Of a DNA stretch of 64,000 bases, positions 57,640 through 64,000 are shown piece after piece. Position 1 is the stretch's first letter. Each line of letters starts with the position of its first letter. Made by a program: the position numbers and the translations under genes. This DNA is from Octopus vulgaris (Eukaryota), in the NCBI GenBank assembly GCA_951406725.2, contig OX597819.1, positions 100,564,001-100,628,000 on the forward strand. Reading direction: 5' to 3'. The notes under the pieces were generated by a model that saw only the letters and a list, made by a program, of their open reading frames with translations, had not been told where the DNA came from and did not search any database.

Positions 57640-58194
57640 ATATCTCTGAGTGAGGTATAGACAGTAGCTGCACGACATGCCCACAAGTACACTGCTGTTT
57701 CTTGCAAGAAATTTTTTTCCTTCAGAAAAGCATAAGAAATTTCGATATGTATTAGATATGTTTGATTGGCCAGTTCATTTCTTTTCAAGAATCCCTGACC
57801 AATTGCATTTTAACTATTACCATTTTATATTTTTCTTTGTGTATCTATTTATTTGTTTTTTTTGTCACATCAGAACACATTTTCACAGTGTTTTCATTTT
57901 TCTTAGAGACGATAGTTGTAATTTTAGAGACAGTCGCTGTTAGTTTAAAGGGAACGATTAACTACGGAGATTCATCCTGGCTGAGTCGATTGATACACGT
58001 TGATATGATATATATATTTGCGACTATCTGTACAGGAATGCCTAAATAATTTTGTTAGATTAATCTTGTGGAAGATGCAATGAGAATTGCATTTGTAGAC
58101 ACTCTGAGATAAGATAGACTGTTGCAACATGTTGTTTAAGAAATTAATTACTGTTGTATAATCAATATATTTAGTAATACCTCCTACAGAAGTA

Positions 58195-58420
58195 GTTCTA
58201 TATTTGGTAATGTCTGCAAAGGAATACTATATTCTGCAATGTCTGAGATATAATAATATATTTGATCAAATCTGTGACAGAATACAAGATTTGGTAAAAA
58301 CTGCGACAGAATTGAAACTATATTCTGTAACACTTGTGACAAAATAACCACTATATGTTTAAATGTTATGACAGAATGGATACTAAGTGTGGTAAAGACT
58401 GTAGCGGGAAAATTAACTAA
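58195..58420. repeat. Degenerate minisatellite, unit about 29-33 bp
   Basis: About 7 units of the type tatatttggtaa..tctgtgacagaat..ac. Confidence 0.55.
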
Positions 58421-59924: not shown

Positions 59925-60741
59925 ATGTATGTATGTATGTATGTATGTATGTATGTATGTATGTATGTATGTATGTATGTATGTATGTATAAAGTATTCA
60001 TGAAAAAGCTTATTAAGCCAAAACCGGACTAAAACTTTATTCGATTAAATGGTTGACTGAAGAACTTGCACTTTATAAAATCACAAGAGCTCACATTTAA
60101 TAAGAACATTATTATTAGAAACCGGTAATTTAACTCTAAAAGTATGTAAAATATTGCACAACTTTAGACTGTTGTATTTATGTATACGCGTCTTATGTTA
60201 TGTATACTATTCATATATACACATCAGATGTGCTCTTGACCTGCTTGCTGATGGCTTTCATCAATCGGCTGAGATTATTGTTGTTAATGGTCTGTATCTG
60301 CTTGATGTCTGCTAGCGAAGAATATGATGACATACATGGCTAGATGACACATACTACTAGTGGCCTCCACAACTTTCCAAATCAGAATATAAATGATTCA
60401 GCCACATCCAAGATGCTGACGTTCTCCGAGGCAATATGGCCAGCAGTTAGACATAGGGGTGCAGCAAACTTCTACGTGTTCTGTGATAGATCTGGTCTGC
60501 CATATTGATGCTAGCAATACATCTACAGAACAAAATAACGAGCAATTCAATATTTCAAGACTGGGGTGTAATATTGGTTCTAAATTTCAGCACAACGCCA
60601 GTAATTTCGAGTGGGATGGGGTATGAGTCGATTATATCAATACTAGTGCTCAACAGGTATTTATTTTCTATATGTAAGAGATGATGAATTATGTGCATTA
60701 TTTACATTTGACGGATTTTTGTCCTCATCTTGTTTGTTGTT

Positions 60742-60787
60742 AACACAATATTTCGGCTGATATACACTCCAGCCTTCATCAGGTGTC
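60742..60787 (-). ncRNA. Minimal type I hammerhead ribozyme, intact core
   Basis: gacac CTGATGA a ggctgg agtgtata tcagcc GAAA ta TT gtgtt; stems I and II pair; palindromic stem III AATATT. Confidence 0.8.
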
Positions 60788-60820
60788 TTGGTGAAATTTT
60801 GAACCTGAGTTCTCATTCGA

Positions 60821-60854
<34 letters not shown>

Positions 60855-62920
60855 TTTATAGCGTGCTTTCACTTCACTACCGAGCGCAGCTCTGTGTGCC
60901 TTAGGTATGTGCTGTGATTTGTTGTGATGCTCTGATGGTTATTGTATGGAAAGTGCGTAGGATGTGTGCAGTGCCTAGTAGTGCAATTTTCTGTATGTTA
61001 TATGTGTTTGTAAGTCCTGGTGTTTTTGTTATGTATTTGTCTGAATATCTTTTTATCGTGCCTAATGCACCTACTATGATAGGAATTGTTTCTGTTTTTA
61101 GATTCCACATTGTGGTTACCTCTATTTTCAGGTCTTTGTATTTTGAAAGTTTCTCCATTTCTTTTAGAGACACGTTGTCATCTGCTGGTATTGATACATC
61201 AATTAGAAGCATTTTTTCTTCATAATCTCCGACAACTATATCTGGTCTGTTGGTCTAATTTCTCTATCTGTGTGTATCGGCATATCCCAGAGTATGGTTG
61301 CTTTCTCGTGTGTGCCTATACCATCTTTTTTCTGTTGTTATTCCATAATGTTGGCATAGCTTCCAGTGTATGTAGGTCCCAACTCTGTCGTGTCTGTGAA
61401 TATATTCCTTCTTAGCCAGGACTGGGCAGCTAGAGATAATATGATTTATTGTTTCTTGTCCATCTCCACATATTCTGCAGTTACTTGTTATATTTCTTTT
61501 CATTACATGTTTTTGGTAATTTCTGGCGGAGAGGCTTTGGTCTTGTGCTGCAATTAGAAATCCCTCTGTTTCTGCTTTGAGTCCTGAGCTTCTCAACCAT
61601 TGCTGGGATTTTTCTTGTCTATTTCTTTTGCATTTAGTTTAGTCCAGTATTTGACATGAAGGGGCTTTTCTTGCCATCGTTTTATCATGGTTCGTTGCTG
61701 TTCTAGTTTTAGTTTCGATTTCATTTGTTTTATAGCTTTTGTTATTTCTTCATCTTCTTCTTATTCATATTTGTTAGGTGGTATAATTTCTTGTTTGTAT
61801 TTGTCAGCTTCCTTAAATACTGAGAACAGTTTTTTTGTTTTGCTCGTGTTTTGCCGCTATTTGTATCAGTTTTCCTTCCTTCTGAAGTAGATATTTTTGC
61901 AGTCCTATGGTGGTTATTTTATAGTAGTTTTCCAGCTGTATAAGGCCTCTACCACCTTCTATACGTTGTATATATAGTCTTTCTATGTCAGATTTTGGGT
62001 GATGCATCCTAGATCCTGTCATTATTTTTCTTGTTTTCCTATCTATTTTGGTCAGTTTATTTAGTGTCCAGTTAAGGATATTGTAGCTGTAACTTATAAC
62101 TGGGACAGCTAAAGTGTTAATACCTATTATCTTGTTTTTAGCATTGAGCTCTGTTTTAGTATTGATCTAACTCGTCTATAATATTCTTTTTTTATTTTCT
62201 CTTTCATTTGTGTGTGTTGTGTCTTATCTAGTTGATGGATTCCTAAGTATTTGTAAGTTTAGCTTTGGTCTAATTCTTTTATTTCATTGGTTTTATCTCG
62301 TGTGATGTTGCTACTCTTAACTATTTTTTATTCTTTTCATGGTTACTTTGACGCATTTTTCTAATCCAAATTTCATATCTATTTCTTTGGTGGATCCATG
62401 AACTGACTTTAATAGTGTTTCCAGCTGTTTGTCAGTTGCAGTGCATAGTTTTAGGTCATCCATATATAAAAGGTGGCTGATCGTTTTGCCGTAACATTTA
62501 TATCCGCATCCAGTTCTATTTAGCATATCAGATAGAGGTGACAGTGCCAAGCAGAAAAGGAGTGGACAGAGCGTGTCTCCCTGGAATATTCCTCTTCTAA
62601 TGGGGATGGCTTTGGTTTTCATGAGTCCCTCTTTTGTTTGGAGCTGTAGCACTGTTTGCCATTTATTCATAGAGTGTCCTATGTATTTTATAATTGTTGG
62701 TGCTACTTTGTTAATGGCTAGTGTTTCGAGGATCCATGTGTGGGGGATGCTATCAAACGACTTTCTGTAGTCGATCCAGGCCATACTGAGGCCTTTCTTC
62801 TTTCTGTGGCTGTCTCCAGTTATGGCTTTATTGATCAGTAGTTGATCTTTACAGCCGTATGAGCCTTTGCGGCATCCTTTCTGCTCATCTGGAAACAGGT
62901 TGTTTTCGTTCAGGTGCTTT
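60855..62920 (-). mobile_element. R4/Dong-clade LINE, 5'-truncated and frameshifted, inserted in (TAA)n
   Basis: RT (EQKGCRKGSYGCKDQL, WIDYRKSFDSIPH, RGIFQGD, HLLYMDDLK), GGRGL, CCHC knuckle CRICGDGQETINHIISSC, RHD, RLE IDVSIPADD...KYKDL; 3' end abuts (TTA)n. Confidence 0.92.
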
Positions 62921-62926
62921 GGCCAC

Positions 62927-63255
62927 TTGGGGTAGCCTGCGCTCTTAAACACTACGCCATATGCCCGTGGGCAATTATGGAATGAATTTTTAGGGCTTAT
63001 GAATATAATATTTTCCTATCCTTCCTTAATACCGGTTCCCATATGCTATTCATATCTGCACTCGGTTTGCTTAGGAGGCACATATGCTAGGACACAGCAA
63101 CCTCCTAAGCAGACCGAATGCAGATATTAATAAAATATGGGAACCGGTATTAAAGAAGGATATAATAATAGTAGATTTATAAGCACTAAAATTCACTCCA
63201 TAATTGCCCACGAGCATATGGCGTAGTGGTTAAGAGAGCGGGTTACTAACCCCAA
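62927..63255. repeat. Imperfect palindrome of about 330 bp with a tRNA-like module in each arm
   Basis: Arms about 150 bp, loop 63079-63100; A box tggcgtagtgg at about 63219 and its reverse complement at about 62950. Confidence 0.85.
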
Positions 63256-63282
63256 TATTCGGAATTCGGTGCCAGGTAGTGA

Positions 63283-63339
<57 letters not shown>

Positions 63340-63393
63340 TAATAACATCTAAATTTCCCTACGAATGAAAACCCAGGTTCGAAATTTCCCCAA

Positions 63394-63431
63394 GACGCCT
63401 GATGTTGGCTGGAGGGTATATCAGCCGAAAC
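63394..63431 (+). ncRNA. Decayed hammerhead, inverted paralog of 60742-60787
   Basis: gacgc CTGATGT t ggctggagggtatatcagcc GAAAC, then a deletion at an AAAC microhomology. Confidence 0.65.
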
Positions 63432-64000
63432 AAGACGAGGAAAAATATCCATCAAATTTAAATAACGTAAGGTATTTATTTTAGTCTAGCAAGGATGAAA
63501 GGCAAAATTGATCTCCCCGGAATTTGAGCATAGATTCTGCAGCTCGCTACTTTAAGAATATGTATTTTTAAGCTGGGTCCTCTTCTATATGCGGTTCGCT
63601 AATTTTTTCTCCCCCCACCCAAAAAAAAAAGTTTAAAATAACAACTCGACGAATCCTGTATGCATTGCTATGTATAGGTAAAAAAAAAGCACGTACCCAC
63701 ACAATAAAATGTCTACACGCACAGATATACACATTGTACATAGGAACATTTAAACATGGCCACCTAGTCGATATTTCGTAAATTCCAATATAATAGCTTA
63801 AATCGACTCTTTTACTTGAAAAATTTTACATGTTTATATTTTAGCGGTAAATATATTTAATATTTACATATATAAGTAAATAGTAACAAAACGGGGGAAA
63901 AAACATGCTTAAGAAAACGAATAATAAATCAAGTTGTTTATGCAGGAACTATCCAGTTACGTCCGTCCCTACAGTTAATGAATAAAATATTACAATATTA

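What the first reader, a model, noticed from the sequence alone, without database searches (positions are those of the whole stretch)
60670..63470. Palindromic tRNA-like + (TAA)n + hammerhead element invaded by a Dong LINE
Seen: the right arm reads unique segment (63100-63215), tRNA-like head with A box and decayed B box (63219-63277), (TAA)n (63288-63345), then an HHR segment (63360-63470). The left arm is its mirror: unique and tRNA-like part at 62927-63078, HHR segment at 60670-60822. The 2 kb Dong LINE sits between the two left-arm parts with its 3' end on the arm's (TTA)n, and part of the tRNA-like head is missing at the LINE 5' junction. Established: Dong/R4 elements target TAA repeats. 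Inference: a Pol III-type head fused to a PLE-type ribozyme tail would be a SINE-like element mobilised by Penelope machinery, carrying its own Dong landing pad (a three-level parasitism).
Basis: partly seen in the sequence, partly recalled or inferred. Interest (0 to 1): 0.8.

Follow-up and report, generated by a model that had tools for sequence, protein, structure and literature searches.

The report
Penelope element with a tRNA-like head
This palindrome is one ordinary shortened insertion of a very common Penelope-type jumping gene, later interrupted by a second jumping gene, but the element's terminal repeat begins with a tRNA-like piece that likely serves as its own promoter and would explain why most copies are short and SINE-like.

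Summary
The anatomy is real, but the unit is not a free-standing SINE. The 'unique' segment is the last ~34 codons of a Penelope/Poseidon-type ORF (RT + GIY-YIG). The hammerhead overlaps the first codons of that same ORF. So head + (TAA)n + hammerhead + tail is the element's pseudo-LTR (pLTR). A 13-bp target duplication encloses the whole palindrome, so it inserted once and the Dong-type LINE came later. Inverted arms are normal here (33 of 58 loci), in a family of about 47,000 loci. Dong hits this (TAA)n no more often than other tracts (2 of 39, against a 9 of 169 share).

What is unusual is that the pLTR starts with a tRNA-derived A/B-box head, absent in 12 of 12 related elements. Of 38 copies that reach the head's first 16 nt, 30 stop there, about 26 times the background rate. 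The RNA therefore likely starts at the head, probably by Pol III, and most copies are SINE-like solo pLTRs. Short and long copies share age and subfamilies, which argues against a separate SINE lineage. Pol III use is inferred; RNA-seq was uninformative. Verdict: new variant of a known kind.

The parts
60655..60667 (+). Target-site duplication, left copy (13 bp)
   Evidence: identical 13-mer at 60655-60667 and 63470-63482, only two occurrences in the 64 kb
60666..60697 (-). Optional ~30-35 nt PLE 'tail', on the left arm only; codons of the ORF 5' region
   Evidence: tail in 11 of 29 HHR-anchored copies; one-sided tail described in PMC8557442
60698..60816 (-). Left arm: 5' end of the PLE ORF (ATG at 60816-60814)
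60742..60787 (-). Minimal type I hammerhead, motif intact: stem I, CUGAUGA core, extra A, stem II, GAAA, palindromic 2-nt helix III; predicted cut between 60747 and 60746
   Evidence: fold gives stems I and II; same layout in 12 related PLE loci; features as in PMC4209133
60823..60854 (-). (TAA)n of the left arm, the Dong target
60855..62919 (-). 5'-truncated, frameshifted R4/Dong-type LINE (RT, zf-RVT, restriction-like endonuclease motifs by eye), 92-96% identical to its closest relatives over 1.8-2 kb
   Evidence: 28 of 28 copies with a mapped 3' end (incl. this one; 2 of 30 unmapped) are followed by (TAA)n
62920..62925 (-). 6-nt filler at the LINE 5' junction; no TAA and no duplication here
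62926..62972 (-). Left arm: first ~51 model positions of the tRNA-like head (A box present, B box lost)
   Evidence: L001 minus hit
62973..63078 (-). Left arm: end of PLE ORF (stop at 62999-62997) and short spacer
63078..63182 (+). Right arm: last 34 codons and stop of the PLE ORF (after the GIY-YIG domain); includes the unpaired 22-nt centre 63079-63100
   Evidence: 70% identical over 27 aa to P0001 C-terminus, E 6e-13
63206..63287 (+). Right arm: tRNA-like head, A box 63219-63229, decayed B box 63262-63273; likely 5' end of the element's RNA
63288..63345 (+). (TAA)n between head and ORF start
63365..63469 (+). Right arm: ORF 5' end (ATG 63365) with a broken hammerhead (63394-63431); ends at the family's main 3' end
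63470..63482 (+). Target-site duplication, right copy (13 bp)

Best explanation
The locus is a single 5'-truncated insertion of an abundant Penelope/Poseidon-type retroelement with the inverted arm usual for this class, later interrupted by a Dong-type LINE, and the element's pseudo-LTR begins with a tRNA-like A/B-box head that likely acts as an RNA polymerase III promoter and sets the 5' end of its RNA. SHOWN: the repeating unit is ORF (RT, GIY-YIG) - stop - head - (TAA)n - ATG - hammerhead - tail - rest of ORF; copy 3' ends fall about 121 and 150-160 nt into the ORF; copy 5' ends pile up at the head's first 16 nt; one target duplication encloses both arms. INFERRED, by analogy with the Anolis Poseidon element, whose RT starts 111-118 nt into its ORF: RNA starts at the head, and the RT-endonuclease nicks AT-rich DNA and starts copying inside the ORF's 5' region. 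If it starts at the first such site it runs off the RNA's 5' end and leaves a ~300-nt solo pLTR that looks like a SINE (about four in five copies that reach the head). If it starts at the site of the next tandem unit it copies on into the ORF end, as in this window. A second, inverted piece is joined at the 5' end. Dong then inserted into the (TAA)n as it does into any such tract, and probably deleted the neighbouring part of the left head.
For: ORF end. A natural 569-aa open frame with RVT_1, whose relatives carry RVT_1 and, in P0069, GIY-YIG (E 1.6e-5). Hammerhead and tail read in frame into the ORF and match the N-terminus of P0003 (E 1e-12 and 3e-4). One natural tandem, ORF end-head-TAA-HHR-ORF start (L430), and one head-start copy running into the ORF (L412). 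5'-end census of 82 hammerhead-bearing copies: 33 end before the head, 11 inside it, 30 at positions 1-16, and 8 go on into the ORF; 2.2 expected at background, about 26-fold hazard; random stretches alone 5 of 8, P 3e-5. L413, L419 and L425 join ORF sequence straight to head position 1, as if RT jumped from the RNA's 5' end. The head aligns end to end with a genomic tRNA-Arg(TCG): score 61 against a maximum of 52 in 500 shuffles. Inverted arm in 33 of 58 anchored loci. TSD. Same age (7.1% vs 6.6%, P 0.46), and both subfamilies hold long and short copies.
Against: No transcript evidence: three RNA-seq runs show balanced strands, 87-88% of reads running on into unrelated sequence, and no place where many molecules begin or end; these look like host read-through and neither support nor exclude Pol III RNA. 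Rfam and ARAGORN do not call the head a tRNA and it does not fold as a cloverleaf. The tRNA test set had only about 25 distinct tRNAs and no Ser/Leu types. The 5' ends are spread over 16 nt, not one base, and a small GCCC-AC-GGGC hairpin at the same place could stop or fold back the RT (several copies are perfect fold-backs there). No control PLE family without a head was censused for 5' pile-ups. The two anchored sets differ (0 of 13 and 5 of 17 go into the ORF), so the long:short ratio is rough. The clade call rests on motifs and homologs, not on a tree with named references.
Confidence: 0.6

Rival explanations
1. The head is a passive fossil: a tRNA-derived SINE with its (TAA)n once landed in the PLE's pLTR and was carried along. 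The 5' pile-up comes from an ordinary Pol II start in the pLTR, or from the RT stalling and folding back at the short hairpin at the head's start.
For: PLE pLTRs are known to hold Pol II starts (PMC6765202, PMC8557442 passages). Perfect fold-backs centred on the hairpin occur (L034, L038, L054, L246, L249). No Pol III RNA is seen. A protein-coding RNA normally needs Pol II (established knowledge).
Against: 14 of the 30 head-start copies have no inverted profile hit upstream, and junctions vary over positions 1-16. The stop zone sits where a Pol III start would be, about 9-13 nt before the A box (established knowledge). A and B boxes are intact in the family majority, and the whole unit lacks a T4 run.
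Confidence: 0.22
2. One reading: the short unit is an independent SINE lineage with its own master copies, borrowing PLE proteins; the ORF-linked form arose when such a SINE replaced the pLTR of an autonomous element.
For: 30 of 38 copies that reach the head start there. Short copies carry both promoter boxes and the RT start region, so some could be sources. The sequence just upstream of the head in long copies faintly resembles an inverted head remnant (P 0.08).
Against: No fixed difference between 34 long and 42 short copies, and equal divergence. Both subfamilies contain both forms (A: 33 long, 37 short; B: 5 long, 18 short). No ORF copy without the head was found (12 of 12). In the Anolis element the RNA needs 172 nt of ORF (PMC11167929), more than most short copies hold.
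Confidence: 0.14
3. The (TAA)n is a selected landing pad that ties Dong to this element (three-level parasitism).
For: Dong-type insertions in this tract recur: window, L062, L080, L097, L108, and probably L009, L035, L043.
Against: 2 of 29 Dong-anchored and 0 of 10 random Dong ends lie in the element, about 5%, against the element's 9 of 169 (5%) share of other (TAA)n tracts.
Confidence: 0.04

Closest known systems
Penelope/Poseidon-clade PLEs, e.g. Poseidon of Anolis carolinensis (PAc; PMC11167929)
   Same: One ORF with RT then C-terminal GIY-YIG; pLTR formed by partial tandems; hammerhead overlapping the ORF start; two 3' ends 30-40 nt apart about 110-160 nt into the ORF; inverted 5'-truncated arm.
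   Different: The pLTR opens with a tRNA-derived A/B-box head and a (TAA)n tract, seen in none of 12 related elements tested nor in the papers read; head-start solo copies outnumber ORF-linked ones about 4 to 1.
Schistosoma SM-alpha / Sj-alpha SINE-like elements (as reviewed in PMC6765202)
   Same: Pol III-type promoter followed by a type I hammerhead in a short, high-copy repeat.
   Different: Those are non-coding, often tandem, and no partner element was named in the passages read; here the same unit is physically the pLTR and ORF start of the autonomous element, mostly dispersed or inverted.
Metazoan non-LTR retrozymes (PMC7761336)
   Same: Short hammerhead repeats proposed to be mobilised by PLEs.
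   Different: Retrozymes are head-to-tail arrays that yield circular RNA; such arrays were not seen in the loci examined, and this unit contains PLE coding sequence.
Non-autonomous Chlamys elements such as MRC1 (PMC8557442)
   Same: Short derivatives that share the autonomous element's 3' end and form pLTRs.
   Different: Different clade, no canonical hammerhead, no tRNA head reported in the passages read.
Dong (R4 clade) LINEs (PMC3774820; Dong-R4 listed for octopus in PMC13282606)
   Same: RT LINE whose copies end on (TAA)n.
   Different: Nothing unusual; the name is assigned by target and motifs, not by a tree.

Membership tests
Penelope-like element (EN+, Penelope/Poseidon type) | Single ORF with RT followed by C-terminal GIY-YIG endonuclease | tested here: met
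   569-aa natural frame with RVT_1; full-length homologs with RVT_1 and GIY-YIG (P0069). The family's own decayed EN pieces gave no Pfam hit.
Penelope-like element (EN+, Penelope/Poseidon type) | pLTR from partial tandems; inverted 5'-truncated arm; optional 30-40 nt tail | tested here: met
   L430 tandem; inverted arm 33 of 58; tail 11 of 29
Penelope-like element (EN+, Penelope/Poseidon type) | Minimal type I hammerhead in the pLTR (extra base between 9 and 10.1, palindromic 15.2-16.2) | tested here: met
   Motif intact in 48 of 93 aligned copies and in 12 related loci; features listed in PMC4209133; Rfam gives no hit
Penelope-like element (EN+, Penelope/Poseidon type) | No extra Zn finger in the RT-EN linker (unlike Neptune/Nematis); RT tree placement | tested here: inconclusive
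   No extra Cys cluster seen by eye in the L132 linker; no tree with named references was built
Penelope-like element (EN+, Penelope/Poseidon type) | Ribozyme self-cleavage | not testable with these tools
   No read pile-up at the predicted site; none was seen for PAc either
tRNA-derived SINE | Head derived from a tRNA with A and B boxes | tested here: met
   Colinear match to genomic tRNA-Arg(TCG), 61 vs shuffle max 52; strict A+B in 13 of 29 copies; below Rfam/ARAGORN thresholds
tRNA-derived SINE | Copies share a 5' end at the head | tested here: met
   30 of 38
tRNA-derived SINE | Transcribed by Pol III | not testable with these tools
   Available RNA-seq uninformative
tRNA-derived SINE | Lineage separate from the autonomous partner, sharing only its 3' end | tested here: not met
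   The whole unit is part of the autonomous element; no diagnostic differences
tRNA-derived SINE | 3' simple-repeat or poly(A) tail and regular target duplications | tested here: not met
   The repeat is internal; 3' ends are PLE RT start sites; TSD of 9 nt or more in 3 of 87 loci by strict filter (about 7 by eye; control 0.1)
Non-LTR retrozyme | Non-coding head-to-tail hammerhead arrays giving circular RNA | tested here: not met
   Copies are single or inverted and contain ORF codons; circular RNA not testable
Dong (R4 clade LINE) | RT plus restriction-like endonuclease, inserts in (TAA)n | tested here: met
   endonuclease motifs read by eye against recalled consensus
Dong (R4 clade LINE) | RT phylogeny within R4 | not tested
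   No reference set used

The most novel reading that the evidence does not exclude
An autonomous Penelope element captured a tRNA-derived Pol III promoter as its own and is transcribed whole by Pol III. One uncapped RNA, free of Pol III terminators over its ~2.6-kb unit, would both encode the RT-endonuclease and template tens of thousands of SINE-like solo pLTRs. That would make it a protein-coding Pol III retroelement and a visible intermediate in the birth of SM-alpha-type hammerhead SINEs. Support is modest: the column-majority ORF and pLTR have no T4 run (2.2 expected from its own codons, P 0.08), whereas the Dong majority in the same genome has 3 and 27 of 28 long frames in related PLE loci have 3 or more (those are single copies, richer in T).
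Probability: 0.22. Interest if true: 0.82.

Novelty: new variant of a known kind. Interest (0 to 1): 0.5.

Why it matters
The palindrome and the nested LINE are ordinary. The point of interest is the family. How PLEs are transcribed is known for very few elements, and PLEs are only suspected partners of short hammerhead repeats. Here an autonomous PLE carries a tRNA-derived head at the exact place where most copies begin. If the head is a working Pol III promoter, it links PLE pLTRs to SINE-like hammerhead elements such as SM-alpha. It also gives a testable route to a SINE without a LINE tail: a solo pLTR copied from the internal RT start site back to the promoter. Practically, a family of roughly 47,000 loci would be split or mislabelled as 'SINE/tRNA' and 'Penelope' by automatic annotation.

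Tried and rejected
Rfam and ARAGORN on the window and on good copies: no tRNA or hammerhead call, only hairpin-type miRNA noise.

Pfam on four natural ORF pieces: RT only, no GIY-YIG hit in this family's own decayed pieces.

Sequencing-run search: no RNA holder listed; the stretch is held by runs under six organism codes, not used as evidence on expression. Reads of RNA runs X21-X23, whose organism is not shown to be the window's, gave no strand bias and no start or end pile-up; depth follows genomic copy shape.

The idea that the sequence upstream of the head is a fossil fold-back: P 0.08, not accepted. A tRNA-like piece near one related PLE (L339) is an unrelated flanking element, not in the pLTR. 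The first A/B-box scan had a faulty B-box pattern and was redone. One locus (L239) was mis-oriented and handled correctly. The association of one variant with short copies (P 0.0004) is explained by query bias, since all B-type short copies came from the head query. No tree was built.

Dropped rows: query self-hits (L031, L061, L091, L121, L141, L229, L410); L015 and L016 as near-duplicates of L005. Three look-ups of earlier scan findings returned nothing.

Ten literature searches found no PLE with a tRNA-derived pLTR. Repbase, Dfam, SINEBase and the older octopus SINE papers could not be seen, so prior description there is not excluded.
Full report
OBSERVATION. The inner arms (62932-63078, 63101-63246) are 86% complementary. 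The outer arms (60698-60859, 63312-63465) match with an 18-nt gap in the right arm. A 2.06-kb RT-bearing LINE on the minus strand (RVT_1 E 1e-18, zf-RVT) separates the two halves of the left arm. A 13-bp direct repeat at 60655-60667 and 63470-63482, found nowhere else in the window, encloses everything. So both arms arrived in one event. The arms are 94% (left) and 89% (right) identical to the family majority and 87% to each other, while the LINE is 92-96% identical to its closest relatives over 1.8-2 kb. The LINE's position inside the duplicated target shows that it came second. The host genome has 2.8 Gb in 227 contigs; that it is an octopus is my inference from the repeat landscape, not a tested result.

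THE 'UNIQUE' SEGMENT IS A PLE ORF END. Copies found with 63100-63290 extend upstream for 20 to more than 1,300 nt and translate to an endonuclease-type C-terminus. The window's 34 codons match the C-terminus of homolog P0001 (70% over 27 aa, E 6e-13). One natural copy keeps a 569-aa open frame with RVT_1. Its homologs are RT proteins of up to about 850 aa, some with GIY-YIG (P0069, E 1.6e-5), although this family's own decayed pieces gave no GIY-YIG hit. In all 12 ORF-internal loci that reach the stop codon, the head or part of it follows directly (12 of 19 loci examined reach it).

THE HAMMERHEAD IS THE ORF START. After (TAA)n comes an ATG whose frame runs through the hammerhead and tail into the ORF. 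This stretch matches the N-terminus of P0003. Of 24 ORF-start loci, 4 extend upstream into the head. L430 shows ORF end, head, TAA, hammerhead and ORF start in one natural tandem, and L412 starts at the head. The ribozyme is the minimal type I form described for PLEs, with an extra base after A9 and a palindromic 15.2-16.2 (PMC4209133, passages). The motif is intact in 48 of 93 aligned copies. The same layout lies downstream of the ORF in 12 of 21 related loci with enough flank. Rfam does not detect it. Copy 3' ends fall 121 and about 150 nt after the ATG, with the longer tail in 11 of 29 copies. In the Anolis Poseidon element, RT starts 111-118 nt into the ORF and the tail lies between two start sites (PMC11167929, parts 1-2 of 4 read). 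Inverted 5'-truncated arms and a one-sided tail are standard for PLEs (PMC8557442, passages); 33 of 58 anchored loci have such an arm. Twenty of 120 evenly spaced 10-kb stretches hold the element, about 47,000 loci (95% interval 28,500-72,000).

WHAT IS UNUSUAL. The head has an A box and, in most copies, a near-canonical B box (strict pair in 13 of 29 head-anchored and 10 of 29 ORF-anchored copies, and in 24 of 30 tRNA loci). It aligns end to end with a genomic tRNA-Arg(TCG), scoring 61 against at most 52 in 500 shuffles (about 25 distinct tRNAs tested, no Ser or Leu). Rfam and ARAGORN do not call it. None of the 12 related PLE loci has an A/B pair or (TAA)n between ORF end and hammerhead. Of 82 hammerhead-bearing copies (58 from two anchored searches, 24 from random stretches), 33 end before the head, 11 inside it, 30 within its first 16 positions, and 8 continue into the ORF. 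Background truncation predicts 2.2 such stops, so the hazard is about 26-fold; random stretches alone give 5 of 8, P 3e-5. Three copies join ORF sequence directly to head position 1. I infer that the RNA starts at the head, where a Pol III start would lie, and that RT initiation at the first internal site yields solo pLTRs. Against a separate SINE lineage: long and short copies are equally diverged (7.1% n=34, 6.6% n=42, P 0.46), show no fixed differences, and occur in both subfamilies. Against certainty about Pol III: RNA-seq from three runs is strand-balanced, 87-88% of reads run into unrelated sequence, and no start pile-up appears. A small hairpin at the head start could also stop the RT. 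The column-majority ORF and pLTR contain no T4 run (P 0.08 against its own codon shuffles), while the Dong majority has 3 and 27 of 28 long frames in related loci have 3 or more. This is compatible with read-through by Pol III but weak.

DONG. All 28 copies with a mapped 3' end (of 30) sit on (TAA)n, as expected for Dong (TAA repeats at its junction in PMC3774820, passages). Two of 29 other anchored copies and 0 of 10 random Dong ends lie in this element's tract, while the element supplies 9 of 169 other (TAA)n tracts. There is no enrichment. At the window's 5' junction, the head's 3' part is missing and 6 filler bases stand in its place. Deletion during insertion is the simplest reading, but inverted arms with internal gaps occur without Dong (L033, L034, L269).

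COMPARISON AND VERDICT. The element is a member of the EN+ Penelope-like elements, probably Penelope/Poseidon (no tree built). The short form works like a SINE in having a Pol III-type head and a common 5' end, but it fails SINE membership on independence and tail. A Pol III promoter followed by a hammerhead is known from schistosome SINE-like repeats (PMC6765202, passages), and PLEs are proposed to mobilise metazoan retrozymes (PMC7761336, passages). Two cephalopod repeat papers list Penelope, Dong-R4 and tRNA SINEs without describing such a unit in the passages seen (PMC13282606 with one supplement searched, PMC8967140). Ten searches found no PLE with a tRNA-derived pLTR; repeat databases and bioRxiv supplements were not available, and older octopus SINE papers are only recalled. 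New variant of a known kind; interest 0.5.

Noticed in passing
window 63487-63545: Just beyond the right target duplication lies a fragment of another repeat that matches four other places in the window; it looks like a common octopus tRNA-type SINE in antisense (label recalled, not tested).
   Followed up: no
L413:1444-1950, L419:1453-2250, L425, L411, L415, L416 (oriented as): Internally deleted forms: the first ~400 nt of the ORF joined to a head-start or hammerhead-start copy. L413 and L419 share one junction and L415 and L416 nearly share another, so they may be a small non-autonomous subfamily or duplications.
   Followed up: partly
window 63280-63290 and L092-L120 3' ends: Both the head and intact Dong copies end in CTG before the (AAT)n run; the head plus repeat might once have been a Dong-mobilised mini-SINE. 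Only 3 shared bases; no free-standing form was found.
   Followed up: no
window 60816-60862: Two small deletions beside the left (TAA)n: about 13 nt of the element before the ATG, and about 9 nt of the Dong 3' end, both at short repeats.
   Followed up: partly
L339:1965-2039: An unrelated tRNA-like element with A and B boxes about 450 nt upstream of a truncated PLE in a metagenome contig; not part of its pLTR.
   Followed up: yes
L009, L035, L043 (after the head's TAA): Further R4-type LINE fragments begin right after the element's (TAA)n; L035 and L043 look like other Dong-type families or other parts of the same one.
   Followed up: partly
window 58164-58347: Short degenerate ~29-nt repeats (families D3, D4).
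   Followed up: no
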